Shown here piece by piece: positions 3,363 to 43,870 of a stretch of 48,466 nt of DNA. Each line of letters opens with the position of its first letter. Position 1 is the first letter of the stretch. Below the pieces are notes generated by a model. It saw only the letters and a list, made by a program, of their open reading frames with translations, searched no databases and was not told where the DNA came from. Source of the DNA: Escherichia phage vB_Eco_SLUR29; the sequence record NC_054895.1, one strand, 5' to 3'. The translations under genes were made by a program, and so were the position numbers.

Positions 3363-3677
3363 TTAAAAACCGTCGAGAATCTCTCGGAAGTTGTTTAGCG
3401 TCTTAACTTTGGCCTTATCCCACGTTACAGATCCTGCATCTTCCCACGGGGAACCAGGGCCGTGATTTGTCATATCATCAATCAAGCAAGAGATCTCATC
3501 AATAACAACATCTTTTAAATGCTCGCGGTACTCAATATCTTCTACAGGCTCAAAAGCCTGAATGACACCTCCTAAAACCTGTTGCTGCGCCTTTGCCTTG
3601 TCCAAATCATCATGGATGAAACGATGCTCTTTCTTGTTCTCGTTAGTTCCGATTTGGTAGTAGTGAATGTAAATCAT
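3363..3677 (-). CDS. hypothetical protein (104 aa, MIYIHYYQ...)
   Basis: ORF with GGAGGA SD; start overlaps stop of upstream gene. Confidence 0.5.
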   Translation of the reverse strand: MIYIHYYQIGTNENKKEHRFIHDDLDKAKAQQQVLGGVIQAFEPVEDIEYREHLKDVVIDEISCLIDDMTNHGPGSPWEDAGSVTWDKAKVKTLNNFREILDGF

Positions 3678-3937
3678 AAACCTGATTCCTCCATAGTCTC
3701 GTTTATGCGCTTCCAGTTTTCGACTTGCTGATCTCTGTATCCATTCTCTCCGAACCATGCGGCAGCTTCCGCTTGCTCAGTCCCAGCAGGATCAAATGCG
3801 TGTTCTAGCTGGCTGAAAACTTCACGGGCCACTTGCTCAGGAATTTTAACCGTTGCCTGGATGCCGTCATCATCTCGCCAGCCAAAGGCCGCTAACATAA
3901 TGCGCGCTTGCTGCTCTGACAGGTTAATCGTGATCAT
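3674..3937 (-). CDS. hypothetical protein (87 aa, MITINLSEQ...)
   Basis: ORF, translational coupling with neighbours. Confidence 0.5.
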   Translation of the reverse strand: MITINLSEQQARIMLAAFGWRDDDGIQATVKIPEQVAREVFSQLEHAFDPAGTEQAEAAAWFGENGYRDQQVENWKRINETMEESGL

Positions 3938-4146
3938 TCTTCTACTACCTCGCATTCGTCATGGTTAACACTAATATTGTCGCCAGCCTTGATAAACTCG
4001 CTGTTACGCGGCGCAATAACACAATAAGATCCGTCGCTGAAATGTCCGTCAACTTCCAGCACATCACCAACAACCAGGCCACATTGCTCAAGAGTGATTG
4101 ATCCGTCGCCGTTGATAGTGTCGATTTTGGTGATTTTGATTTTCAT
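3934..4146 (-). CDS. hypothetical protein (70 aa)
   Basis: ORF with AGAGGA SD; first gene after the repeated 19-mer/stem-loop element at 4204. Confidence 0.55.
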   Translation of the reverse strand: MKIKITKIDTINGDGSITLEQCGLVVGDVLEVDGHFSDGSYCVIAPRNSEFIKAGDNISVNHDECEVVEE

Positions 4147-4203
4147 TGCGCTTTCCTCTGTTTCGCTTCAATAAGGGCACTTTACCAAATGCCCTTGCGG
4201 AAG

Positions 4204-4222
4204 TTTTAACAAAAAGTGCTAT
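4204..4222 (-). promoter_or_regulatory. conserved early element, minus-strand copy, with stem-loop AGGGCA/TGCCCT
   Basis: reverse complement exact 19-mer followed by hairpin with TGGTAAAGT in loop; precedes gene 3934..4146. Confidence 0.55.
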
Positions 4223-4512
4223 TAGCTCAGATAGTAAAGCTCATCGCGCGCGAAGTCGTCAAAATCTCGCTGTGTCAGCGGTCGATCCTCTCGCGCCGCT
4301 TCCTCTATCATATTGATCAAAAAATCGTTCATCGCCCCTAGTCCGCCATCCGGCATATAGCAAGCTGCGAAAGCTCGCGCCCATGAACGAGCATTTTTGA
4401 ATCCGGCGCGCTTCATTGTGACTGGCGAGTGTTTAGAGTCGTTCCACTTGTTACACTGAGCGATGTTTTCAAAAGCGTTAACCAGTAGTTTGCGGTAAGT
4501 TTTGTTTGCCAT
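4222..4512 (-). CDS. hypothetical protein (96 aa)
   Basis: ORF with AAGGGG SD. Confidence 0.55.
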   Translation of the reverse strand: MANKTYRKLLVNAFENIAQCNKWNDSKHSPVTMKRAGFKNARSWARAFAACYMPDGGLGAMNDFLINMIEEAAREDRPLTQRDFDDFARDELYYLS

Positions 4513-4523
4513 TTCAGATCCCC

Positions 4524-4706
4524 TTATTTTTGTTTAAGCCCCATCAGCATCTTGCGAACGCCATCCTTTTTCCCGTCAGAGTAGCCAGCAATCGAACCAG
4601 CGGCAAACATCATCAAGTTGCCCCAAAAGGCCATAATGCCCTCATAGTTAATGGTTAAATGACTGCCGAAAAGGATCAGGAAAAGAATAATAATACCAGT
4701 TTTCAT
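4524..4706 (-). CDS. small membrane protein (60 aa, MKTGIIILFLILF...)
   Basis: two hydrophobic segments; GAGG SD. Confidence 0.5.
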   Translation of the reverse strand: MKTGIIILFLILFGSHLTINYEGIMAFWGNLMMFAAGSIAGYSDGKKDGVRKMLMGLKQK

Positions 4707-4713
4707 TTTAACC

Positions 4714-4962
4714 TCAGTAACAATCATTAACGTGAATCAGCACGGAAAAACGACACTTGCGTAAGCGGTGGCGCTTCTTGACGTACATATAAGCATCGCT
4801 GTAATACTTAAATTCAGTGGCAATGATGCCGAAAAAGTCGTCTGTAACATAGTGCCAATTGCCTCCTAAGCTGCGTCGCTGCACATGATAAGTAGAACAG
4901 TCTCGGCAAAATACGATCCGGTATTCCGGCTTAAACAGTCGTTTCAATGCGTTAAAAACCAT
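4714..4962 (-). CDS. hypothetical Cys-containing protein (82 aa)
   Basis: ORF with GAGGG SD; CRDC and additional Cys residues suggest possible metal binding. Confidence 0.5.
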   Translation of the reverse strand: MVFNALKRLFKPEYRIVFCRDCSTYHVQRRSLGGNWHYVTDDFFGIIATEFKYYSDAYMYVKKRHRLRKCRFSVLIHVNDCY

Positions 4963-6817: not shown

Positions 6818-6836
6818 TTTTTGCAAAAAGTGCTAT
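6818..6836 (-). promoter_or_regulatory. degenerate minus-strand copy of 19-mer element with stem-loop GGGCTT/AAGCCC
   Basis: reverse complement ATAGCACTTTTTGCAAAAA; TATAGT in loop; ACAACAAACGAGGA leader; contains TAG stop of lipoprotein gene. Confidence 0.5.
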
Positions 6837-7105
6837 TTTGTCTCGACGGTCATATGTTCTGTCTTCGTGCCTTTGCCATTGCTTTTCGACACTTCCCAGC
6901 TAGTAGCGCCCTTGCAGTTGGTGAAGTAAACAGTGCGATCGTCATAGAATCGGTAAACGGTGCAACCGTCAGCGGTGAATAGCTCCCTTACGCTGTAGTC
7001 ATCGCCAGGGTTAGCCATCTGCACATTGCCAACATGCGCGCCATCTTCTTTGCATCCGGTCAGGAATGCCATTGCCGCCAAAACGCTGATTAATGCCTTT
7101 TTCAT
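6833..7105 (-). CDS. lipoprotein (lipobox LTGC)
   Basis: signal peptide plus LTGC lipobox; 90 aa; AGAGGA SD. Confidence 0.55.
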   Translation of the reverse strand: MKKALISVLAAMAFLTGCKEDGAHVGNVQMANPGDDYSVRELFTADGCTVYRFYDDRTVYFTNCKGATSWEVSKSNGKGTKTEHMTVETK

Positions 7106-23250: not shown

Positions 23251-23269
23251 CATTAGCAAAAAGTGCTAT
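23251..23269 (-). promoter_or_regulatory. degenerate copy of 19-mer element (16/19), reverse orientation relative to adjacent + gene
   Basis: CATTAGCAAAAAGTGCTAT directly upstream of SD of tail fiber gene. Confidence 0.4.
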
Positions 23270-23286: not shown

Positions 23287-25254
23287 ATGGCGATTTACAG
23301 ACAAGGCCAAGCGTCTATGGACGCGCAAGGTTATGTAACTGGTTACGGTACAAAATGGCGTGAGCAATTAACCTTGATTCGCCCAGGTGCAACTATTTTC
23401 TTTCTTGCTCAACCTTTGCAAGCTGCTGTGATTACGGAAGTGATTAGCGATACAAGCATTCGCGCAATTACTACTGGCGGCGCGGTAGTCCAGAAGACAA
23501 ATTACCTGATCTTGCTTCATGACTCGTTAACGGTTGACGGTCTTGCGCAAGACGTAGCGGAAACGTTGCGTTATTACCAGGGGAAGGAATCGGAGTTTGC
23601 TGGATTTATTGAGATCATCAAGGATTTTGATTGGGATAAGCTACAGAAGATCCAGGAAGACGTAAAGACAAATGCTGACGCAGCCGCAGCAAGCCAGAAG
23701 GCAGCTAAAACTAGCGAGAATAACGCAAAGACAAGCGCAACAAATGCAGAGAATAGCAAGAAAGGTGCTGATACTGCAAAGGCTGCCGCTGAATCCGCGC
23801 GTGACGCTGCAAATACCGCAAAGACTGGCGCTGAAACTGCAAGAAAAGGCGCTGAAACTGCGCGTGATGCTGCGAATGCCGCAAAGACAGGTGCTGAAAG
23901 TGCTAGAGATCAAGCGGAGGAATACGCAAAGCAGGCCGCAGAACCTTACAAAGATTTATTGCAGCCTCTGCCTGACGTGTGGATACCATTTAATGATTCC
24001 CTGGATATGATCACCGGATTCTCGCCGTCATACAAAAAGATTGTCATAGGTGATGATGAGATCACGATGCCGGGCGACAAGATTGTCAAATTTAAACGTG
24101 CATCAACTGCAACATACATTAACAAATCAGGTATTCTTACCGTTGCAGCAATTGATGAACCGCGTTTTGAAAAAGATGGATTGCTGATTGAAGGGCAGAG
24201 AACAAACAACTTCATAAATAGCAATTCACCGAACAAATGGAATAGAAACGTAAACAGACTGGACGTATCAGCTGATTCTACAGATGAATTTGGTATAACT
24301 TCCGCTAAATTCACTTATAAAGAAAGTCAAGATACTGACCCGATCACAGCAATTTCAACTGGTACATCTCGCGTAGTGGATGTTGCGAATGGTGAGTATG
24401 GAACTATCTCAATACGCGCAAGAATCGGCGAGGAATATTCTTCACCAGTTAGGTTAAGATTGCGATTCTCCAAACTCAGTCCTGATGGACAAGGAAACAT
24501 ATTTATAGCTGATGTGATGCTTGATCTTGTCACTCTTGATGTGACTGGAGGGGTTAATTTGACGTATGATGTAAAGCAAGAATCAGGTGGATGGGTACTA
24601 TTCCAGGGTACATATAGAGCAACAGAAGATATAAAGATGTATGCTCGCGTTGAGATGATAGCAAGGGCAGGCCAGGATATTACCGCAGGTCAATTTATGA
24701 CTATAGCTACCGCCCAAGTTGAAAACGGATCATCTGCTTCGTCTCTGGTTATCACTGATGGAACTCCGGCAACAAGGGCAAGCGATATGGTTACATTGCC
24801 AATAAAAAACAACCTTTACAATTTGCCTTTTACAGTGCTTGTGGAAGCTCATAAAAACTGGAGTATAACGCCAAACGCAGCGCCGCGTGTTTTTGATACA
24901 GGCGGCCATCAAACCGGAGCGGCAATTGTTCTTGCTTTTGGGTCTGCTGAGGGAGATAATGACGGATTCCCTTATTGCGGTATAGGTAACTCAAACCGAA
25001 GGGTTTACGAGAATGCGAAACTAAAAAAGATGATCATGGGAATGAGAGTAAAGAGTGATTACAATAATTGCTGTGTAAGTAATGCCAGAATATCAAGCGA
25101 AACAAAAACGGAATGGAGATACATAAGATCGACGGCTACTATAAGGATTGGCGGACAAACAAGTACAGGCGAACGCCATCTTTTCGGGCACGTTAGAAAC
25201 TTCCGTATATGGCACAAGGCGCTAACAGATCATCAATTGGGGGAAATTGTTTAA
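23287..25254 (+). CDS. tail fiber protein
   Basis: 655 aa; A/K/T-rich coiled-coil repeat region typical of phage fibers; strong SD. Confidence 0.75.
   Translation: MAIYRQGQASMDAQGYVTGYGTKWREQLTLIRPGATIFFLAQPLQAAVITEVISDTSIRAITTGGAVVQKTNYLILLHDSLTVDGLAQDVAETLRYYQGKESEFAGFIEIIKDFDWDKLQKIQEDVKTNADAAAASQKAAKTSENNAKTSATNAENSKKGADTAKAAAESARDAANTAKTGAETARKGAETARDAANAAKTGAESARDQAEEYAKQAAEPYKDLLQPLPDVWIPFNDSLDMITGFSPSYKKIVIGDDEITMPGDKIVKFKRASTATYINKSGILTVAAIDEPRFEKDGLLIEGQRTNNFINSNSPNKWNRNVNRLDVSADSTDEFGITSAKFTYKESQDTDPITAISTGTSRVVDVANGEYGTISIRARIGEEYSSPVRLRLRFSKLSPDGQGNIFIADVMLDLVTLDVTGGVNLTYDVKQESGGWVLFQGTYRATEDIKMYARVEMIARAGQDITAGQFMTIATAQVENGSSASSLVITDGTPATRASDMVTLPIKNNLYNLPFTVLVEAHKNWSITPNAAPRVFDTGGHQTGAAIVLAFGSAEGDNDGFPYCGIGNSNRRVYENAKLKKMIMGMRVKSDYNNCCVSNARISSETKTEWRYIRSTATIRIGGQTSTGERHLFGHVRNFRIWHKALTDHQLGEIV
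23690..23925 (+). repeat. imperfect tandem coding repeats inside tail fiber gene
   Basis: repeated GCGCGTGACGCTGCAAAT..GCAAAGAC..GGCGCTGAAACTGC units encoding AxxAKTxAE repeats. Confidence 0.6.
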
Positions 25255-25544: not shown

Positions 25545-26282
25545 ATGGCTACAGTAACTGTTATACCTAATGATATAACGAGGCTGAAAAATGATGTTTC
25601 AACACTAAAACAGGATGTTGCTACTATTCCTGGTGATATAACGAAGCTGAAAAGTGATGTTTCGACACTAAAACAGGATGTTGCAGGAAAAGCATCAACT
25701 ACTGATGTTGACAATAAGTTGAAGTTGTATCTAAAACAAAATGATCTATCGTCCGAGTTGGATAGCGGAAGGTATGGTGGCAATTTTTACCCCCTGACTG
25801 GTAACGAGGCATTTTATTTGTTTAGACTAAACACAACCGCTCAATCAGCAAACTTATGGCTTGATCCAAATGCTGGAGTGTCGCAAGTTTTACGCTCCAC
25901 TTCCTCTTCTCGTTATAAGCGCAGCGTAGAATCGGTTATTGATGAATATGCGGATCTGATGCTTGAAATGCGTCCTGTGTGGTATCGGTCAACCTGTGAA
26001 AGCGACCGTAAAGATTGGGGATGGTACGGACTGATTGCAGAGGAAGTTGGAGAAATTGCGCCGGAGTACGTTCACTGGCGACCGCTGCAAGAAGGAGAAG
26101 ATCCTGCCATTGCTTCAAGTAATGGCATGGTGGCGGAAGGCGTTATGTATGACCGCCTAACTGTTCCACTGATTCACCACGTTAAGAAACTGAAAGCGGA
26201 AAACGATGAGATGAGAAAAGAAATTGACGAGCTAAAAGCGGTTGTAGCGGCACTGGTAAACAAACCAACCACGTTAGACTAA
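25545..26282 (+). CDS. fiber-like protein with C-terminal intramolecular-chaperone-like domain
   Basis: N-terminal 21-aa tandem repeat; C-terminal segment ...STCESDRKDWGWYGLIAEEVGEIAPEYV resembling peptidase S74 autocleaving chaperone domains. Confidence 0.55.
   Translation: MATVTVIPNDITRLKNDVSTLKQDVATIPGDITKLKSDVSTLKQDVAGKASTTDVDNKLKLYLKQNDLSSELDSGRYGGNFYPLTGNEAFYLFRLNTTAQSANLWLDPNAGVSQVLRSTSSSRYKRSVESVIDEYADLMLEMRPVWYRSTCESDRKDWGWYGLIAEEVGEIAPEYVHWRPLQEGEDPAIASSNGMVAEGVMYDRLTVPLIHHVKKLKAENDEMRKEIDELKAVVAALVNKPTTLD
25569..25694 (+). repeat. 2 x 63-bp direct tandem repeat within CDS
   Basis: about 90% identical units encoding DITRLKNDVSTLKQDVATIPG / DITKLKSDVSTLKQDVAGKAS. Confidence 0.85.
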
Positions 26283-26810: not shown

Positions 26811-27467
<657 letters not shown>

Positions 27468-27725
27468 TTATTCCTTCTCGCTTTCAAGCATTTTAATAAA
27501 TTCTTCTGTTGATTCAGCAACCAACCTCTCGCGCTCTTTGTTTCCCTTGCTCATCGTTGCAACAAGGATAACGTTGTCAATGGATGCAACCACGTCCTTG
27601 ATATAAGTCTTCATTTCTTCCGACTCTTTAATGTTCATCGGCTTAATAAATTCTTTCATTGCAATGGTTACTCGATCAATGAATCGTTCTAAATGCAATA
27701 ATGTGGCATTGTCTTTATCTGTCAT
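27468..27725 (-). CDS. hypothetical protein (85 aa)
   Basis: ORF within recombination operon. Confidence 0.5.
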   Translation of the reverse strand: MTDKDNATLLHLERFIDRVTIAMKEFIKPMNIKESEEMKTYIKDVVASIDNVILVATMSKGNKERERLVAESTEEFIKMLESEKE

Positions 27726-27800
27726 TTCTCATTCTCACGTTATCTGGTTGGCGAATTATATCACCAACCATTATAAAAGTTTAGCTATTTGTTTAGTTTG

Positions 27801-28856
27801 TCACAGATACTGCCTGAATTGAGCACGGACCCAATCAGGAGTATCAAGATCAATTTCTGGCTGCCCGTTTGCATACGAAGGCCATTCATCTAACTGTTGG
27901 CAAACGTTGAACTTGTTGATCACGCTCATGTACTGGATACGCCCGATCTTCAATTGCTCAATGTTCATGCGGAATGCGAGCGGCAAGTAAGGCTCTTTCT
28001 TCTCTTGAGCAAGCAATCTCACAATTACTGGCCTTTCCTCGTCTGGATACGCCTTTTTAAATAAATCATGCTGCAAAGCCATTTTGAGATAATAGCCGTG
28101 ATTGTAAGCTAGGCGCTGGAAGTCAACCGGATTTGCGCTAACCGTTGTTTTATAGTCAGTGATAATCACAGCTTCTGGATAGATGACTTCTTCATAAATC
28201 GGTCGGCCTTTTTCGTCGTAACCGTTAATGATTGTGGCCTTTACATCCTTGTTTACGTCAACGTGATCAAGGCGCACTTTAACTTTTACGCCATTGATGA
28301 TCCCGAATATTGACATTTCACGCTGCGCGGTTGGGCTATTCATGCAAGCATTATGCTCAGGTATTGCCTCAAGTACGCGCCGCATCGCTACACAGGCATC
28401 ATAATCTTTCGCGTCGATTAACTGCACGCCGTCCGCTGCGGCCTGGCATTCTGCCATCATTTCGATAAGCCACCATACATTGAGATCCTCACCGCACTTG
28501 TACAGCATTTCCAGCAATTCTGGATATTGCTTACCCGTTGTACCTTTCAGGCCAAAAGATTTCAGCTTTGAGGCTAACGCCGTTTGACTTGTGATCAGAT
28601 CTTTAAAATCATCCTGCGACGGTGCGCGGCGATATGTTTTTTCGAATAACTCCTTGCTTTCAAAATTGGTATGCGACTGCGTACCGAAAACAAGTGCCTT
28701 AGTTTCCTGGCGAGGCTTGTACTTCCAGTACGCCGGGCAAGTGCTGTAAATCTCCGCCAAGCTGGAACCGCTGACGTATTCAGCCGTCCACGCGTTAGGA
28801 TCATGATAAAGCTCATTGCTCATTTCTTCGCTAGTGTAGGCGTTAAAATCACTCAT
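27801..28856 (-). CDS. PD-(D/E)xK exonuclease (RecB/YqaJ-like)
   Basis: 351 aa; ...VIITDYKT... D-x-K motif; first gene of operon with Erf and SSB; strong SD. Confidence 0.6.
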   Translation of the reverse strand: MSDFNAYTSEEMSNELYHDPNAWTAEYVSGSSLAEIYSTCPAYWKYKPRQETKALVFGTQSHTNFESKELFEKTYRRAPSQDDFKDLITSQTALASKLKSFGLKGTTGKQYPELLEMLYKCGEDLNVWWLIEMMAECQAAADGVQLIDAKDYDACVAMRRVLEAIPEHNACMNSPTAQREMSIFGIINGVKVKVRLDHVDVNKDVKATIINGYDEKGRPIYEEVIYPEAVIITDYKTTVSANPVDFQRLAYNHGYYLKMALQHDLFKKAYPDEERPVIVRLLAQEKKEPYLPLAFRMNIEQLKIGRIQYMSVINKFNVCQQLDEWPSYANGQPEIDLDTPDWVRAQFRQYL

Positions 28857-28886
28857 CTTTAATGCTCCTTGTTGCTTTATGCGTGC

Positions 28887-28914
28887 ATTGTAGCCATTTG
28901 GTTGATTTAGTCAA
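28887..28914 (-). promoter_or_regulatory. sigma70-type promoter (TTGACT-16-TACAAT) for recombination operon
   Basis: minus-strand hexamers at 28914..28909 and 28892..28887. Confidence 0.55.
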
Positions 28915-28995
28915 TAGTTGTTTTGTTTTTTCTGTTTTCTAAACGTTCTCAGATGGCAATAAAACAAATTTGACGCGTAAGTTAATGATTAATAT

Positions 28996-29200
28996 GTGTT
29001 ATTTTTCTTGTTCCCTTGTTCTCTCATATACGCCGGATTATATACATACACATGAATGATGGCGCATGCAGATACTCAGAAAGAAAAATCACCACAAACA
29101 ACCAAAACCACAAGAAACACAGATAACAAGAAAAAACAAATATACATACATAAATAAATAAACTATTGATTTTATATGTATATATCTATTTTATTGATTA
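28996..29200. repeat. non-coding module R2 (paralogous to 7709..7910)
   Basis: same ordered blocks as R1 (GTTATTTTTCT, CGCCGG, TATATACATA, ACAACCA, AAATAAATAA). Confidence 0.5.
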
Positions 29201-29283
29201 TTTATTGTTCTTATGTTGGCTAAAATTTGCGCTAAATTTACGCCGTCTTAAATTCGATAACACCGTAAAACAAAAAATAACAA

Positions 29284-29302
29284 GTAGCACTTTTTGCTAA
29301 AC
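29284..29302 (+). promoter_or_regulatory. degenerate copy of 19-mer element (GTAGCACTTTTTGCTAAAC) with -10-like TATAGT
   Basis: TATAGT 21 nt after TTGCTA; ACAACAACAAAGGAG leader; precedes lipoprotein gene. Confidence 0.45.
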
Positions 29303-29356
29303 GCGCGCCTTAAAATCGTGTATAGTTGAACCAACAACAACAAAGGAGATGAAAAG

Positions 29357-29584
29357 ATGAAAAAGTTAATTGCCGTTTTAATCGCAGCCGTTGCGCTGAC
29401 TGGTTGCGCAAATATGCCTAAACGTGAATGCACGGCTATTTATGAAAATAGCGGAATGCAGTATTCAGTTGCTATCTTTGGGGCAAAACGAGTTGGCGAC
29501 CGCACTCTTGTCAAGGCTGGCTATCCATTTAATTTTCAGTGGGTGAGCATTGATAACTTTAAAAACGCTGATTGCAGTCTGTAA
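29357..29584 (+). CDS. small lipoprotein (75 aa), candidate superinfection-exclusion (Cor-like) protein
   Basis: signal peptide plus LTGC lipobox; isolated gene next to tail module. Confidence 0.5.
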   Translation: MKKLIAVLIAAVALTGCANMPKRECTAIYENSGMQYSVAIFGAKRVGDRTLVKAGYPFNFQWVSIDNFKNADCSL

Positions 29585-29585
29585 A

Positions 29586-29616
29586 TAAAAATAAAGGGGC
29601 AAAAGCCCCTTTTTAA
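29586..29616. terminator. bidirectional intrinsic terminator
   Basis: hairpin AGGGGCAAAAGCCCCT flanked by A- and T-runs, between convergent genes. Confidence 0.65.
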
Positions 29617-30207
29617 TTAGTCGTAAATATCAGTCTTTATTGCTGTAATTATATTTCCATGATTAATATAACCTTGAGCGCCTGGAGGCTGTCCGGCTGC
29701 CTTGCCATAAATCCTTGTAGTGCTTCCGTTATATTTTGTTGCGGCATAAATAGATGCAGATCCCATTCCAACAATAGCACCAAGCAATTGTGGCGCAACC
29801 GCATAAGAACCTGTAAGAGTCTGATCTATGTATATTCCACCTTTATTTCCAGGGGTGCCAACCTTTACAAGATCTGTAAGAATCCTTGATTCATTTGTTA
29901 ATATTAGTTGACCTTGAGCATTCCAGATCGCCATTCCATATTTTGGAAGCGAAGGAGTAAAAATAGTAAAGATGTAACCTACTCCATTTCCAGGCCCAAC
30001 CAACAATTCTGTTGCTGAATTTCTAAAGGCCATTGATATTCCGTCAGCGTCACGAGCAAAATACATGACAGGCTTACCAGATGGAATTGTCACTGATTGG
30101 TAACTTGACGTTAGCGTCATTCGCCTATAAAGGCACAAAGGACTTGCGTCAGGAGTAACGAAAACATTGCCATTGGATAATTTTAAACTTGCTCCGTATT
30201 GTGCCAT
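29617..30207 (-). CDS. putative tail (fiber/tip-associated) protein (196 aa)
   Basis: last gene of tail module; Gly/Ser/Thr-rich. Confidence 0.5.
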   Translation of the reverse strand: MAQYGASLKLSNGNVFVTPDASPLCLYRRMTLTSSYQSVTIPSGKPVMYFARDADGISMAFRNSATELLVGPGNGVGYIFTIFTPSLPKYGMAIWNAQGQLILTNESRILTDLVKVGTPGNKGGIYIDQTLTGSYAVAPQLLGAIVGMGSASIYAATKYNGSTTRIYGKAAGQPPGAQGYINHGNIITAIKTDIYD

Positions 30208-30519
30208 TTATGCAGTCTCCAAAAAAACAACAACATCGCATTTTGTTGTAGGCCATATGTCAGCACCTATTGATGATCCAGCATTTGAAATAGTAATTTT
30301 GTTGCCTGATATTGTGATTTTTCTCCTATCTCCGGCGCTGCTACCTTCATCAAGGGATATTGCGTATGATAGTTTATATCCAGAAGGAACATTAAACGTA
30401 TAACTGCCAGAAACCTGGCCTGTAGAAAGCGAGAACATTCCAACAACAACGGATGGCTTGATGCCGTAGTTGTTATATTTTCCGTTTGCATCCCATGTTG
30501 ATATTCCATATTCAGCCAT
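30208..30519 (-). CDS. putative tail protein (103 aa, MAEYGISTWD...)
   Basis: GGAGG SD; immediately downstream of J-like gene. Confidence 0.5.
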   Translation of the reverse strand: MAEYGISTWDANGKYNNYGIKPSVVVGMFSLSTGQVSGSYTFNVPSGYKLSYAISLDEGSSAGDRRKITISGNKITISNAGSSIGADIWPTTKCDVVVFLETA

Positions 30520-30562
30520 TATTAAACCTCCATAAATGCGGGGCAAGCGCCCCGCTTTGATT

Positions 30563-33500
30563 TTACCACGTACCAGTAAGCCTACCAATCTGAACACGCA
30601 AGCGCCCGTTTGCGTCCCGTACACTTATCGTTTCGTTGGTCAACTTCATGGCCCCTTCTCCAGATGTAGAACCATAGTTCTCAAATCTGCCATTTTTATC
30701 CAGCCTCCACCCCTGCTGATTAGCAACAAAGTTATTCGACTGAATATAATTACCGATCATAGCATTTGTGATGGACCCGTTTTTCACTAGCAGGCTGTTA
30801 ATGAAAACCTGGTTGTTTTCAACAACGAAAGGCAAAGTAAACGTTCCGCCAGTAGAGCTAGTCATGATCGCGAACCTGTTAGCATCGAACAAGATTTGCG
30901 AGATCAGGCCTTGAGAAGATTGCGACAACTGCATGATCATTCCTGCGCTGTACTTCTGCCCCTTGTAAGTAAGGCCCAATTTCATAGCGTACTTAGCGCC
31001 AACAGAATCAACGTTAGCCCACGAATCAAGTTTTTCGGCTAGTGCTGATTCAACATCTCCGAATTTAGCTGTTAAAGCCTGGTCAGCCTGAACCCTTGCC
31101 TCTGTCTCATTGGCGATCGCCTGTTTCACTTCTGAGATGTTAGCCTCGACTTCTGTTTTGATAACTCCGTCAAGGTCGTTTATCTCTTTCGTGAACTTAG
31201 CGTCAAGCTGCTGAACGGCCTGAGCGCGCGCTTCTGATTCATTGGTAATGGTTTGCCTTACCTCGCCAATGCTTGCAGCCGTATCTCGTTTTACGCCGTC
31301 TATTTCCTTCGTAAATTTAGAATCAAGCTGCTGCACTTGAGTAGCTCGCGTCTCTGATTCATTGGCAATCGCTTCCTGAACGGTTTTGATACTTGAAACT
31401 ATATCTTCATCAATTGACGCCTTTAACTCTTCGATTTGAGTTACTCGCGCCTCCGTTTCGGTAGCAATAAGCTCCAGTGCATGACCATATTCAGCCTTAC
31501 GCTTTCCGTTTTGTACTCGCGTCCACTTCACATCGGCATCGTTTGCCAATGCGTTCTGGATGATTGATTGCGCCTGGTCTTTGATTTTGTTTGCACTGTC
31601 TATGGCGTTCTCTTTGATTTCTTGACCCGCTTCGGTATCAAAAATCTTGTCCAGAATGTCGCCTAAAACAGATTCAACATCATCTGACGCCATGCCGCGA
31701 ACAAAGTCAGTCCAGCCGGAAACGTTGCCGATCCTGTCAACGCTACGGATTCTATACCATACAACTTGACCCGCTGGTAACGTGCTATGCCAATACTCAT
31801 ATTGAGGATACGGGATCAGCGTAAGAAGACTTGAGTTTTCCACCGTTCCATCTGGCGATTGGTGAAGCTCAATGTAGGCAGTATCGCCTGAACCTTCCGG
31901 CATACCCCATTTAACACGAATGCCAAAAACTTCATTATCAGAGGCTGTAAGATTAATCGGCGCTCCTGGCTCGCCAACTTTACCTGTCAGGGTTGCGGTT
32001 GCAATCTTTGACCACGGGGAAGTGTTACCGCTTGCAGAAACGGATCTCACCCTTACTTGGTAGTTGCCTGAATAAATCCCTTCTACCTCTATCTCTTTGT
32101 TAGCGGTCTGCGGCGTATTCAGCCAGTTACCATCACCTTTTCGCCACTGCATTTCATAAAGCGATGCGTAAGGAACCTTATCCCATGAAACAACCATAGT
32201 CTCAACGCTAACACCCTGCACGACGCGAGAATAAGATGAGATCTTAACGTTCTCAGGCGCTGCCATCACGTCAGGCTGAACAATTGAAGTCGGCCTGTCA
32301 TCAATGTTTACGCCATAATCAATCTCGTCGTATTTGTTCGGATCGTACTCCACAGCCGTGATTGAATAGGTAAACTCGTTTTCGTCATCACCCTTGCTGA
32401 TAGTTGTCACAACGTATTGCTGCAACGCAAGATCAGTACGGTCAATCGCAAAAACAGTATCAGGCTTAACATCAAAACCAAATCCAATATTTAACTCAAT
32501 GGTTTTTCCGTCTGCGCTAACCTTTGAGATCGTGCGCTTAACTGGCTTGCCGTCCGGCTTGTTGATGATAATAAAATCACCAGGGCGAGCATCAACCTTA
32601 AACGGAACGAAAACCTGCAATCCTGAAACTTCCATCACTCGGCCTGATAGGTTTAACGTTAGGTTGCTGCTCTGAAAATTATCAGCGATAGCAATCACAT
32701 CACCTATTGATGGAATCATCCCCTCTAGTCCGGTAGCAAAGTTTACAGTAGTGCTTCTAAGGTTTGTTTTCAAAACCCACCGACCGCGACGATTCGCTTC
32801 GCTCCTGCGTGTACAACCGATCGCTGTAATGCTTGTTGGATTGTATCCAAATCGTAATGCAGCCTCAGTATCAAAAACCCCCTCTACGTCCTGCTGATAC
32901 ATGTTTTGTTCGTCGTCAAACGTCACGTTACACTGCGTGTACATGCTTTTTTCGCTTGCGTTTGTGTACTGAAAATCACCGTTGATGACGTTTTCATTAG
33001 TAAACACGTATGATGGATCGCGCGGCTTATCAATCACGATTGATAAGCTCTCACCATTCCAAAAACTCATTCCGCGAAAGATTGAGCAAATGTCACGGAT
33101 TAGCTGATAAGCCTCAACTTGATTCTGAATCACCACATCGCATAGGTAGCGAGGCTCTGTACCGCCCTTGCCGTCTGGAACTTTCTGATCACAGTAAACA
33201 CCCGCCTCATATAAGCTCCACTTGTCGATCTGTATTCCTAACTCTCGCTGATCAAGTCCGTAACGCTGATTTGTCACCAGATCATAAAGAACCCAAGCCG
33301 GATTATTTGACCACGCTTTTTTAAAAGTCCCATCCCATGACCCGTGATATTCTCTTGATATTGGATCATAGTTGCTTGGCACATTAATAATCTTCCATTT
33401 CTTTTTTATAGAAATGTTAGGGATTTGCGTAGGAAACAGTTCGCTGTCAAATTCTACGAATACAAGGCCAGTCAGAGGATAACGGAATTTTGCATCAACA

Positions 33501-34141
33501 ACCTCAGCGTAACTTTGCAGCTTGATTTTATCAGTCACCTTTGAAGACGTGCTATCTGGCGTCATTCTCCTGACTCGTATTAAAACACGCTCATCAAATT
33601 TAGGAAGATCAATCCTTCTGCTGCGGTCATATCCTGATCTTGTCTTGCCGTCAATTGCATCCCTCATAACCTCGCTATAAGAACCGCCATCAATAGCCAT
33701 ATCTACGGCATACTCAACCCTTACGCCAACAAGATCGCCGTTATCCTCCTGTTTTATGCCAACTGGCATCAGAATCTTGATTCTTATTGCAGAAAGATTT
33801 TTGTTTGTCACAGAGATAATATAGGGATTGTCTGTTGTAATGTCTCGCGAAACTGTCACCTCGCTTGATGTGTCAGTAAACCCCTGGATGTAATCTTGCG
33901 TCTGTGTGCCTGGTCTATATTCAGCCGTTACCCCATCATAGTTAACAGTGCCATCGCTGGCAATAACCGGAACATCATCAAGATAAAGATCACGCAACGT
34001 GAAATCTGGATCGCACTCGCCATCAGATACAGCCAGCAAAACTTTAATCTTGTTTATCGAGATCAGGTTATCTTCCATCTCTTTTGGCACGTATGGCTTT
34101 TTGCTTCCGCCCTTACTGCCACTTATCATATATTTATCCAT
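30563..34141 (-). CDS. central tail fiber / host specificity protein (lambda J-like)
   Basis: 1192 aa; blocks ...RVRRMTPDST..., ...VPSNYDP..R.Y.G.WDGTFK.A.SNN.AW..., ...YCDQ.VPDG.GGTEPR... recalled as matching lambda gpJ. Confidence 0.85.
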   Translation of the reverse strand: MDKYMISGSKGGSKKPYVPKEMEDNLISINKIKVLLAVSDGECDPDFTLRDLYLDDVPVIASDGTVNYDGVTAEYRPGTQTQDYIQGFTDTSSEVTVSRDITTDNPYIISVTNKNLSAIRIKILMPVGIKQEDNGDLVGVRVEYAVDMAIDGGSYSEVMRDAIDGKTRSGYDRSRRIDLPKFDERVLIRVRRMTPDSTSSKVTDKIKLQSYAEVVDAKFRYPLTGLVFVEFDSELFPTQIPNISIKKKWKIINVPSNYDPISREYHGSWDGTFKKAWSNNPAWVLYDLVTNQRYGLDQRELGIQIDKWSLYEAGVYCDQKVPDGKGGTEPRYLCDVVIQNQVEAYQLIRDICSIFRGMSFWNGESLSIVIDKPRDPSYVFTNENVINGDFQYTNASEKSMYTQCNVTFDDEQNMYQQDVEGVFDTEAALRFGYNPTSITAIGCTRRSEANRRGRWVLKTNLRSTTVNFATGLEGMIPSIGDVIAIADNFQSSNLTLNLSGRVMEVSGLQVFVPFKVDARPGDFIIINKPDGKPVKRTISKVSADGKTIELNIGFGFDVKPDTVFAIDRTDLALQQYVVTTISKGDDENEFTYSITAVEYDPNKYDEIDYGVNIDDRPTSIVQPDVMAAPENVKISSYSRVVQGVSVETMVVSWDKVPYASLYEMQWRKGDGNWLNTPQTANKEIEVEGIYSGNYQVRVRSVSASGNTSPWSKIATATLTGKVGEPGAPINLTASDNEVFGIRVKWGMPEGSGDTAYIELHQSPDGTVENSSLLTLIPYPQYEYWHSTLPAGQVVWYRIRSVDRIGNVSGWTDFVRGMASDDVESVLGDILDKIFDTEAGQEIKENAIDSANKIKDQAQSIIQNALANDADVKWTRVQNGKRKAEYGHALELIATETEARVTQIEELKASIDEDIVSSIKTVQEAIANESETRATQVQQLDSKFTKEIDGVKRDTAASIGEVRQTITNESEARAQAVQQLDAKFTKEINDLDGVIKTEVEANISEVKQAIANETEARVQADQALTAKFGDVESALAEKLDSWANVDSVGAKYAMKLGLTYKGQKYSAGMIMQLSQSSQGLISQILFDANRFAIMTSSTGGTFTLPFVVENNQVFINSLLVKNGSITNAMIGNYIQSNNFVANQQGWRLDKNGRFENYGSTSGEGAMKLTNETISVRDANGRLRVQIGRLTGTW

Positions 34142-34188
34142 GACTTTTAACCTTTTGTGCTGTTTATTGGTTTGCTCATTATAAATGC

Positions 34189-40076: not shown

Positions 40077-40095
40077 ATAGCACTTTTTGTTAAAA
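40077..40095 (+). promoter_or_regulatory. exact 19-mer copy in plus orientation inside leftward structural operon
   Basis: ATAGCACTTTTTGTTAAAA; TAGATT 22 nt after TTGTTA; about 45 nt before terminator at 40141; its reverse complement abuts SD of G gene. Confidence 0.45.
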
Positions 40096-40132
40096 GTGGA
40101 ATTAATTTATTTGATAGATTGATTTTACAGGA

Positions 40133-40160
40133 ATGAAAAAAGGGGCGCAACGCCCCTTGT
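40133..40160 (-). terminator. intrinsic terminator after major tail protein gene
   Basis: minus-strand GGGGCGTTGCGCCCCT followed by TTTTTTT. Confidence 0.7.
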
Positions 40161-40161
40161 T

Positions 40162-43826: not shown

Positions 43827-43845
43827 ATAGCACTTTTTGTTAAAC
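43827..43845 (+). promoter_or_regulatory. 19-mer copy (ATAGCACTTTTTGTTAAAC) in plus orientation inside structural operon
   Basis: 18/19 match; TATTAG 22 nt after TTGTTA. Confidence 0.4.
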
Positions 43846-43870
43846 GTGCAATGTTTTTTTATGCTATTAG

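What the first reader, a model, noticed from the sequence alone, without database searches (positions are those of the whole stretch)
29357..29584. Stand-alone lipoprotein gene next to the tail module: candidate receptor-blocking superinfection-exclusion factor
A 75-aa lipoprotein (LTGC lipobox) is encoded on the opposite strand to the tail genes, with its own degenerate element copy upstream and a bidirectional terminator downstream. Small outer-membrane lipoproteins in this position in FhuA-dependent phages (Cor of phi80/N15/T1-like phages, Llp of T5) inactivate the receptor. A second lipoprotein (6833..7105) lies in the leftward early operon.
Basis: partly seen in the sequence, partly recalled or inferred. 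Interest (0 to 1): 0.45.

Follow-up and report, generated by a model that had tools for sequence, protein, structure and literature searches.

The report
Cor receptor-blocking lipoprotein of T1-like phage

Summary
The ORF at 29357..29584 (+) is real. It is under strong purifying selection (pN/pS 0.05 against phage PeterMerian) and has a textbook lipoprotein signal peptide (LTGC, Cys17).

It is a member of the Cor family:
- NCBIfam NF047972 scores 66.8 bits against a cut-off of 31.
- PHROG 1119 matches at E 1.8e-28 over the full length.
- It is 100% identical to an annotated exclusion protein of phage vB_Eco-B1.2, 56% to T1 Cor and 36% to phi80 Cor.

It lies in the canonical T1 arrangement: J-like tail tip, then two small receptor-locus genes, a terminator, and an inverted cor. 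The cassette is 95-96% identical to that of PeterMerian. Cor itself is 98.7% identical to that of JLBYU41. Both phages are experimentally FhuA-dependent.

The window is a Warwickvirus. Its closest genome relatives carry a BtuB-type cassette instead. Homology to them breaks inside the signal-peptide codons.

The best solved-structure match is T5 Llp bound to FhuA, but the match is weak.

The second lipoprotein (6833..7105, minus strand) is a DUF4884 protein. It is not Cor-like and is not linked to receptor type.

Verdict: observation confirmed, interpretation supported by homology, already known, low interest.

The parts
29285..29326 (+). Promoter-like element upstream of cor: core TAGCACTTTTTGCTAAA (29285-29301) plus a -10-like TATAGT (29321-29326)
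   Evidence: The cor copy matches 16 of 17 core positions of a 15-copy family; 0.24 copies are expected by chance. In about 12 of the copies the element is followed at a fixed distance by a TATAxT box, a leader, an RBS and an ATG. The element is conserved upstream of cor in PeterMerian, morffagbaw, B1.2 and JLBYU41, and upstream of the alternative lipoprotein allele of XY3. Promoter activity is inferred, not shown. The strict sigma-70 scan did not call it.
29344..29348 (+). Shine-Dalgarno sequence AGGAG, 8 nt upstream of the ATG
   Evidence: Read directly from the sequence.
29357..29584 (+). cor gene: 75-aa prolipoprotein. Signal peptide is residues 1-16, the lipobox is LTGC, and the lipidated residue is Cys17. 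The mature protein is 59 aa with Cys25 and Cys73.
   Evidence: Family assignment. Purifying selection. Invariant C17, C25, C73, G55 and P57 across 61 family members.
29593..29612 (.). GC-rich hairpin (AAAGGGGC-AAAA-GCCCCTTT) between the convergent cor gene and the tail/receptor genes; a likely bidirectional intrinsic terminator
   Evidence: T1 has an annotated rho-independent terminator at the same place.
29617..30207 (-). 196-aa receptor-locus protein (PHROG 425 'membrane associated protein'; homologue of T1 orf31 and phi80 gp23)
   Evidence: PHROG 425 at E 3.7e-46. Identity is 96.4% to PeterMerian, 41% to T1 orf31 and 40% to phi80 gp23.
30208..30519 (-). 103-aa receptor-locus protein (PHROG 557 'outer membrane protein'; homologue of T1 orf32 and phi80 gp22). 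The ATG at 30519 is taken as the start because the homologues begin MAEYG.
   Evidence: PHROG 557 at E 1.2e-30. Identity is 95% to PeterMerian, 52% to T1 orf32 and 57% to phi80 gp22.
30563..34141 (-). J-like central tail fibre / tail tip protein, immediately upstream of the receptor locus
   Evidence: PHROG 31 at E 0. Annotated as the J-like tail tip protein in relatives.
29411..30560 (.). The exchangeable FhuA-type cassette: mature-Cor coding part, terminator and both receptor-locus genes. This stretch has no nucleotide homology to the closest genome relative XY3.
   Evidence: blastn of the window against XY3 aligns 27129..29410 at 95% and 30561..34143 at 93%, with nothing in between. The base-level junction falls after the lipobox codons.

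Best explanation
This is the cor gene of a Warwickvirus (Drexlerviridae, Tempevirinae).

Proposed expression and location. It is a monocistronic unit with its own phage-type promoter element and a shared hairpin terminator. It is transcribed convergently to the tail operon. The 75-aa precursor is exported. It is lipidated at Cys17 and cleaved by signal peptidase II. [quoted passage not shown]

Proposed action. The 59-aa mature domain is a small beta-sheet protein, probably clamped by a Cys25-Cys73 disulfide. It binds and inactivates FhuA, the terminal receptor of this phage. Further FhuA-dependent phages then cannot adsorb irreversibly to the infected cell, and progeny are not wasted on debris. 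The most likely mechanism is that solved for T5 Llp: binding to the periplasmic face and plug of FhuA, which allosterically folds extracellular loops over the phage-binding site.

What is shown and what is inferred. Shown here are family membership, lipoprotein features, selection, genomic context and linkage to FhuA-type cassettes. Inferred are the promoter activity, the outer-membrane location, the exclusion phenotype and the Llp-like mode of binding.
For: Family membership. NF047972 scores 66.8 bits against a cut-off of 31. PHROG 1119 matches at E 1.8e-28 over residues 1-74. Identity is 100% to the annotated exclusion protein of vB_Eco-B1.2, 56% to T1 Cor, 35.5% to phi80 Cor and 33% to HK022 Cor. 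C17, C25, C73, G55 and P57 are invariant, and the AGYPF motif is nearly so, in 61 family members.

Selection. pN/pS is 0.05 against PeterMerian.

Context. The order J / gp22-like / gp23-like / terminator / inverted cor is the same as in T1. phi80 has the same three genes, co-directional there.

Receptor link. The cassette proteins are 95-96% identical to those of PeterMerian, whose terminal receptor is FhuA by experiment. Cor is 98.7% identical to that of JLBYU41, which is FhuA-dependent by experiment. JLBYU41's receptor-locus proteins are only 52% and 62% identical to the window's, so Cor tracks the receptor rather than the receptor-binding-protein allele. Sister phages with a BtuB-type cassette carry a different lipoprotein at the same spot.

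Fold. The AF2 model has mean pLDDT 84.5. Its best match among 350,542 PDB chains is Llp in the FhuA-Llp crystal structure, 8a60_B, which is also the best sequence-profile match in PDB. In BFVD the top hits are a Dhillonvirus Cor and then lipoproteins from slur09 and DT571/2, which I take from my own knowledge to be T5-like phages.

Literature. Cor functionally inactivates FhuA, and Cor and Llp are considered one family with a shared disulfide.
Against: No experiment exists on this exact protein or, as far as the papers read here show, on any Tempevirinae Cor. The characterised Cor proteins (phi80, N15, mEp167, HK022) are only 33-36% identical.

The structural and sequence links to Llp are weak statistically: Foldseek E 0.095 with TM 0.46-0.54, and profile E 0.026 that mostly covers the signal peptide and first strand.

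The molecular mechanism of Cor is stated to be unresolved. One study, cited as Arguijo-Hernandez 2018 and not read here, reports from its title that Cor interacts with other outer-membrane proteins.

The promoter element does not fit a canonical -35/-10 spacing.
Confidence: 0.85

Rival explanations
1. [quoted passage not shown]
For: The FhuA:Llp preprint says the molecular mechanism of Cor exclusion has not been elucidated. [quoted passage not shown] The similarity of this Cor to Llp is weak.
Against: Llp is the single best PDB match by both fold and profile. The Cys pair that constrains the termini of Llp has a counterpart at the same relative positions: mature Cys9 and Cys57 here against Cys11 and Cys58 in Llp. 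A published AF3 model docks a T1-like Cor on the periplasmic side of FhuA with ipTM 0.84. Cor alleles track receptor type, not the phage backbone.
Confidence: 0.2
2. The main selected role in this virulent phage is protection of released progeny from irreversible adsorption to FhuA on lysed-cell debris, rather than exclusion of competitors during infection. The molecular mechanism would be the same, and this role is not exclusive of the best explanation.
For: The KanT1 paper lists prevention of progeny adsorption to cell remnants as a function of this kind of exclusion. The phage is a virulent T1-like siphovirus with no lysogeny, and the gene has its own promoter rather than being part of a prophage-expressed unit.
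Against: Nothing in the sequence discriminates between the two roles. In temperate phages Cor is expressed from the prophage and clearly acts as an exclusion factor.
Confidence: 0.3
3. It is a generic small lipoprotein, or a chance ORF in an AT-rich spacer, with no role in exclusion.
For: It is small (75 aa). The weak Pfam hits cover only the signal peptide.
Against: It matches curated Cor profiles over the full length and above cut-off. pN/pS is 0.05. The position is conserved in T1, phi80 and HK022. The profile search returned 229 family members.
Confidence: 0.02

Closest known systems
Cor of Tempevirinae phages (vB_Eco-B1.2, JLBYU41, PeterMerian/Bas05, Hanrivervirus herni, slyngel and others)
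   Same: Protein identity is 100% (B1.2), 98.7% (JLBYU41) and 94.7% (PeterMerian). The upstream element, the terminator and the position between exonuclease VIII and the receptor locus are the same. GenBank annotates it as a (Cor) superinfection exclusion protein.
   Different: The adjacent receptor-locus proteins come in two alleles. The window and PeterMerian share one. B1.2 and JLBYU41 share another that is 51-63% identical.
Cor of phage T1 (orf30, 'lysogenic conversion protein Cor')
   Same: 56% identity over all 75 residues, with the same length, lipobox (LTGC), Cys pair and AGYPF motif. The gene order and the inverted orientation relative to J/orf32/orf31 are the same, with a terminator in between.
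   Different: It belongs to a different subfamily (Tunavirinae). The TAGCACTTTTTGYTAAA element is absent from the T1 locus.
Cor of temperate phages phi80, HK022, N15 and mEp167 (the experimentally characterised members)
   Same: Same family (NF047972), with the same lipoprotein architecture and conserved residues. phi80 also has gp22/gp23 homologues just upstream.
   Different: Identity is only 33-36%. In these phages cor is co-directional with J and is expressed as a moron from the prophage. Here it is inverted, in a virulent phage, behind a phage-type promoter element.
Llp of phage T5 (PDB 8A60, complex with FhuA)
   Same: It is a small outer-membrane lipoprotein encoded next to the receptor-binding gene of a FhuA-dependent siphovirus. 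It is the best PDB match by fold and by profile. An intramolecular Cys pair sits at equivalent positions.
   Different: Identity is about 25% over the aligned part. The statistics are weak (E 0.095 and 0.026). The neighbouring receptor-binding protein is a different type (pb5). Llp is not matched by the Cor profiles at family level.
BtuB-type lipoprotein of sister Warwickviruses (XY3, tunus, FritzSarasin/Bas04), and Rtp45 of LptD-targeting phages
   Same: It occupies the same locus behind the same promoter element, leader and signal peptide. It has a Cys pair near the mature N and C termini, and it scores sub-threshold against the Cor profile (19.2 bits). Rtp45 is a structurally proven exclusion protein encoded in the equivalent locus.
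   Different: The mature domain is unrelated at the sequence level and is longer (89 aa precursor). It is co-transcribed with its receptor genes, which are inverted relative to J. It is linked to BtuB, not FhuA.

Membership tests
Cor (phage exclusion lipoprotein; NCBIfam NF047972, PHROG 1119) | Full-length match to the curated family profile above its cut-off | tested here: met
   NF047972 scores 66.8 bits against a cut-off of 31 over residues 1-73. PHROG 1119 matches at E 1.8e-28 over residues 1-74.
Cor (phage exclusion lipoprotein; NCBIfam NF047972, PHROG 1119) | Type II (lipoprotein) signal peptide with a lipobox and an invariant Cys | tested here: met
   The signal peptide is MKK + LIAVLIAAVA + LTGC, with Cys17 invariant in 61 members. 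Pfam LPAM_1 scores 19.6 bits, just under its cut-off of 20.
Cor (phage exclusion lipoprotein; NCBIfam NF047972, PHROG 1119) | Conserved mature-domain residues: a Cys pair near both termini and the AGYPF motif | tested here: met
   C25, C73, G55 and P57 are invariant. A54, Y56 and F58 are at least 90% conserved.
Cor (phage exclusion lipoprotein; NCBIfam NF047972, PHROG 1119) | Encoded next to the J-like tail tip gene and the gp22/gp23-like pair of a FhuA-dependent siphovirus | tested here: met
   The same cassette is present as in T1 and phi80. It is 95-96% identical to that of PeterMerian, whose receptor is FhuA by experiment. FhuA use by this phage itself is inferred.
Cor (phage exclusion lipoprotein; NCBIfam NF047972, PHROG 1119) | Expression confers exclusion of FhuA-dependent phages and inactivates FhuA functions | not testable with these tools
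   This needs plating and uptake assays. The literature reports it for prophage Cor proteins.
Llp (T5 lytic conversion lipoprotein) | Detectable sequence homology to Llp | tested here: inconclusive
   The Cor-family profile searched against PDB sequences gives 8a60_B as the best hit. The E-value is 0.026, and the match covers only profile positions 1-46, including the signal peptide.
Llp (T5 lytic conversion lipoprotein) | Same fold as Llp in the FhuA-Llp crystal structure | tested here: inconclusive
   8a60_B ranks first of 350,542 chains, with probability 0.99, TM 0.46/0.54 and rmsd 3.4 A over 60 columns, but E is 0.095. In BFVD, lipoproteins from slur09 and DT571/2 rank 2 and 3; that these are T5-like phages is from my own knowledge.
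Llp (T5 lytic conversion lipoprotein) | Encoded adjacent to a pb5-type receptor-binding protein | tested here: not met
   The neighbours belong to PHROG 425 and PHROG 557 and are homologues of T1 orf31/orf32, not pb5.
DUF4884 (Pfam PF16225), for the second lipoprotein at 6833..7105 (-) | Pfam match above the gathering score | tested here: met
   PF16225 scores 31.9 bits against a cut-off of 30. There is no NCBIfam hit and no Cor hit. The PHROG matches, 6360 and 902, are of unknown function.

The most novel reading that the evidence does not exclude
The exclusion-lipoprotein locus may be built as a constant 'handle' plus a swappable part. The handle would be the ~430-bp AT-rich spacer, the promoter element, the leader and the signal-peptide/lipobox codons. 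The swappable part would be the mature domain plus the receptor-locus genes. On this reading the signal-peptide codons and the 3' end of J serve as the two homology arms through which Warwickviruses switch between FhuA and BtuB while always keeping a matching exclusion protein. The evidence does not exclude that this junction is a preferred recombination site rather than a one-off.
Probability: 0.45. Interest if true: 0.3.

Novelty: already known. Interest (0 to 1): 0.1.

Why it matters
It adds no new biology.

It is useful for annotation: the gene predicts that this phage uses FhuA as its terminal receptor. It also predicts that infected cells become refractory to other FhuA-dependent phages (T1, T5, phi80) and probably to FhuA-dependent uptake. 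That is relevant when designing phage cocktails.

The mosaic junction inside the signal-peptide codons is a tidy illustration of receptor and exclusion modules being exchanged together. The principle was already described for small siphoviruses in the BASEL work.

Tried and rejected
- Pfam gave only sub-threshold hits that cover the signal peptide: LPAM_1, Phage_lipoprotein and DUF6491. Pfam has no usable Cor model, so NCBIfam and PHROGs were used instead.
- The first word-indexed protein search found only 6 close relatives. A profile of T1, phi80 and HK022 Cor was needed to reach 229.
- An Rfam scan of the whole window at gathering threshold found nothing, including in the AT-rich spacer.
- The strict sigma-70 scan did not call a plus-strand promoter upstream of cor. 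The promoter assignment therefore rests on the repeated element.
- The small ORFs in 29016..29300, annotated as hypothetical proteins in ON716453, were considered and rejected as genes. They are short, low-complexity translations of an AT-rich spacer, and most other records do not annotate them.
- The idea that the second lipoprotein is another receptor blocker was rejected. It is 100% identical in XY3 and tunus, which carry the BtuB-type cassette. It also occurs in Serratia, Erwinia and Xanthomonas phages.
- A literature search for the promoter-like motif returned only an irrelevant paper.
- Wietzorrek et al. 2006 (PMC1367250) is not held.

Full report
**Observation**

The ORF is present exactly at 29357..29584 on the plus strand. 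An AGGAG ribosome-binding site lies 8 nt upstream. The product begins MKKLIAVLIAAVALTGC. That is a positively charged n-region, a 10-residue hydrophobic core and an LTGC lipobox, with Cys17 as the residue to be lipidated. Position +2 is Ala. By the established Asp(+2) retention rule of the E. coli Lol pathway, Ala predicts sorting to the outer membrane.

The mature protein is 59 aa (6.6 kDa, pI 8.6) and has two further cysteines, C25 and C73.

The gene is clearly coding. Against the PeterMerian orthologue the nucleotide identity is 87%, with 24.5 synonymous and 4.5 non-synonymous differences (pN/pS 0.05). Against vB_Eco-B1.2 all 4 differences are synonymous.

Both neighbours are on the opposite strand: exonuclease VIII at 27801..28856, and the tail/receptor genes at 29617..30207, 30208..30519 and 30563..34141.

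**Flanking signals**

It occurs 15 times in the window with up to 3 mismatches, against 0.24 expected by chance. The cor copy at 29285-29301 has one mismatch and points in the direction of cor.

Aligning all copies shows a TATAxT box at a fixed distance; for cor this is TATAGT at 29321-29326. In about 12 copies a short leader, an RBS and a start codon follow. This is the behaviour of a promoter family. The TTGTTA inside the core lies 20-22 nt from the -10 box, so it is not a canonical -35. The strict sigma-70 scan did not call it. Promoter function is therefore inferred.

Downstream, the hairpin at 29593-29612 folds at -13.1 kcal/mol on the plus strand and -14.2 kcal/mol on the minus strand (z -3.1 and -4.8). 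It has U-rich tails on both sides. T1 has an annotated terminator at the same position.

**What it is**

The protein matches the curated NCBIfam equivalog NF047972, 'phage exclusion lipoprotein Cor', at 66.8 bits against a cut-off of 31. It matches PHROG 1119, 'Cor superinfection exclusion protein', at E 1.8e-28 end to end.

tblastn against 50,697 phage records finds 231 records. Identities to named proteins are given below.

| Phage | Identity to window Cor |
|---|---|
| vB_Eco-B1.2 (annotated super-infection exclusion protein) | 100% |
| JLBYU41 | 98.7% |
| PeterMerian | 94.7% |
| T1 Cor | 56-57%, full length |
| phi80 and mEp Cor proteins | 35.5% |
| HK022 Cor | 33% |

A profile search retrieved 229 family members, many named Cor by NCBI or UniRef. 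In a 61-sequence alignment G16, C17, C25, G55, P57 and C73 are invariant, and A54, Y56 and F58 are nearly so.

**Context and receptor**

The window is a Warwickvirus (Drexlerviridae, Tempevirinae). It is 97-98% identical over most of its length to phages tunus and XY3.

The order is J-like tail tip, then a 103-aa PHROG 557 protein, a 196-aa PHROG 425 protein, the terminator and the inverted cor. This is the T1 arrangement (orf33/32/31/cor). phi80 has the same three genes, co-directional there.

Published work links this three-gene cassette to FhuA use. It calls the two small genes either bona fide receptor-binding genes or possible exclusion accessories.

The window's cassette proteins are 96.4%, 95.1% and 94.7% identical to those of PeterMerian/Bas05. 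The terminal receptor of Bas05 was determined as FhuA.

The same Cor (98.7% identical) is paired in JLBYU41 with receptor-locus proteins that are only 52% and 62% identical to the window's. JLBYU41 is also FhuA-dependent by experiment. Cor therefore tracks the receptor and not the receptor-binding-protein allele. That is what is expected if Cor and the phage tip contact different faces of FhuA.

**Mosaic structure**

The closest genome relatives do not have this cassette. Nucleotide homology to XY3 runs from 27129 to 29410 and resumes at 30561. The left junction lies just after the lipobox codons.

In XY3 the same spacer, promoter element, TATAGT box, leader and signal peptide are fused to an unrelated 89-aa mature lipoprotein. 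That protein again has a Cys pair near its ends. It is followed, co-directionally, by distant homologues of the two receptor-locus genes.

That lipoprotein is 98.9% identical in FritzSarasin/Bas04, a BtuB-dependent phage. It is the majority allele: the upstream 480-510 nt of the window are shared at 91-97% with 63 Warwickvirus records, most of which carry the BtuB-type allele.

So the locus is a constant expression and export 'handle' with an exchangeable exclusion-plus-receptor module. This extends, at base resolution, the modularity already described for these phages.

**Mechanism**

The AF2 model built on the 61-sequence alignment has mean pLDDT 84.5 and above 90 for the mature core. It shows a signal-peptide helix followed by a small antiparallel beta structure.

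Its best match among all PDB chains is Llp in the FhuA-Llp crystal structure, 8a60_B, with probability 0.99, TM 0.46/0.54 and rmsd 3.4 A. E is only 0.095. The same chain is the best PDB hit of the sequence profile at E 0.026. In BFVD the top hit is a Dhillonvirus Cor at E 6e-8. It is followed by lipoproteins from slur09 and DT571/2, which I take from my own knowledge to be T5-like phages.

[quoted passage not shown] This makes loops EL7 and EL8 fold inward over the pb5 site. Llp also has a Cys11-Cys58 disulfide constraining its termini. The authors expect Cor proteins to work alike.

The Cys pair here, at mature positions 9 and 57, is at the equivalent place. Two later papers model T1-type Cor proteins with an Llp-like fold. 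One of them docks a T1-type Cor on the periplasmic side of FhuA with ipTM 0.84.

I therefore commit to an Llp-like periplasmic jam of FhuA. My estimates are:
- about 0.85 that this protein inactivates FhuA;
- about 0.65 that it does so by direct periplasmic binding.

The main rival is an indirect action through other outer-membrane proteins. It rests on a study cited that I could not read, and on the statement that the Cor mechanism is unresolved.

**Second lipoprotein**

The ORF at 6833..7105 is on the minus strand and encodes a 90-aa lipoprotein (MKKALISVLAAMAFLTGC...).

- It matches Pfam DUF4884 just above threshold, at 31.9 bits against 30.
- It matches PHROGs 6360 and 902, both of unknown function.
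- It does not match Cor.
- It is 100% identical in XY3 and tunus, which carry the BtuB cassette. It also has homologues in Serratia, Erwinia and Xanthomonas phages.

It is therefore not coupled to receptor specificity, and there is no basis for calling it a receptor blocker.

**Verdict**

The gene is an already annotated member of a known family in a known genomic arrangement. Interest is low. The only mildly new points are the junction inside the signal-peptide codons and the shared promoter-like element.

Noticed in passing
window 4205, 5500, 6819, 18152, 19201, 21690, 23252 (minus strand); 8182, 8569, 9874, 12073, 12747, 14909, 29285, 40078, 43828 (plus strand): A family of about 16 copies of (AAA)TAGCACTTTTTGTTAAAA is followed about 21 nt later by a GGTATAgT or cATAAT box. 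There are 15 copies within 3 mismatches against 0.24 expected by chance. Most copies precede a leader, an RBS and an ATG, so it looks like the phage's own promoter class. The spacing does not fit a normal -35. It resembles an UP element with an extended -10, or a regulator site. A text search for the motif in the held papers found nothing relevant.
   Followed up: partly
window 40078-40161 and 43828-43870 (plus strand); 23252 (minus strand): Two copies of the promoter-like element sit in intergenic gaps of the minus-strand structural operon and point antisense. The copy at 40078 runs within about 45 nt into the hairpin at 40138-40161. The copy at 23252 is likewise followed directly by a GC hairpin. 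These could be very short or antisense transcripts, or regulator binding sites.
   Followed up: no
window 28857-29284: A non-coding spacer of about 430 bp lies between the divergent exonuclease VIII and cor genes. It is AT-rich (GC 25-33%), with runs such as ACAAACAACCAAAACCACAAGAAACACAGATAACAAGAAAAAACAAATATACATACATAAATAAATAAAC. It is conserved at 91-97% in 63 Warwickvirus records and has no Rfam match. Some records annotate four tiny ORFs here, which look spurious.
   Followed up: partly
window 6833-7105 (minus strand): This is a 90-aa DUF4884 lipoprotein (lipobox LTGC, Cys18). Its TAG stop codon is part of the next promoter-like element at 6819-6835. It is conserved irrespective of receptor cassette and is also found in Serratia, Erwinia and Xanthomonas phages. 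Its function is unknown.
   Followed up: partly
L003 (XY3) 3608-4772; equivalent to window 29411-30560: The closest genome relatives (XY3, tunus, FritzSarasin) carry a BtuB-type module instead. It consists of an 89-aa Cor-like lipoprotein and distant homologues of the two receptor-locus genes. All three are inverted relative to J and co-transcribed from the same promoter element. The lipoprotein is annotated only as 'hypothetical protein' in about 90 records.
   Followed up: partly
window 29977-30441 compared with L004 (vB_Eco-B1.2): There is a second mosaic breakpoint inside the FhuA-type cassette. B1.2 shares cor (100% aa) and the 3' third of the PHROG 425 gene with the window. The rest of that gene and the PHROG 557 gene belong to the JLBYU41-type allele (51-63% aa).
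   Followed up: partly
window 26786, 29590, 30534, 40138, 42461, 44676: A recurring AAAAGGGGCGCAAGCGCCCCxTTT-type GC hairpin family is scattered between genes. These are likely intrinsic terminators, and several appear able to act in both directions.
   Followed up: no
window 31162-31374, 23718-23903 and 25562-25684: There are in-frame direct repeats inside the J-like gene (93 nt, 2 copies, 71% identity). There are also repeats in the lateral tail-fibre region (63-nt and 60-nt units).
   Followed up: no
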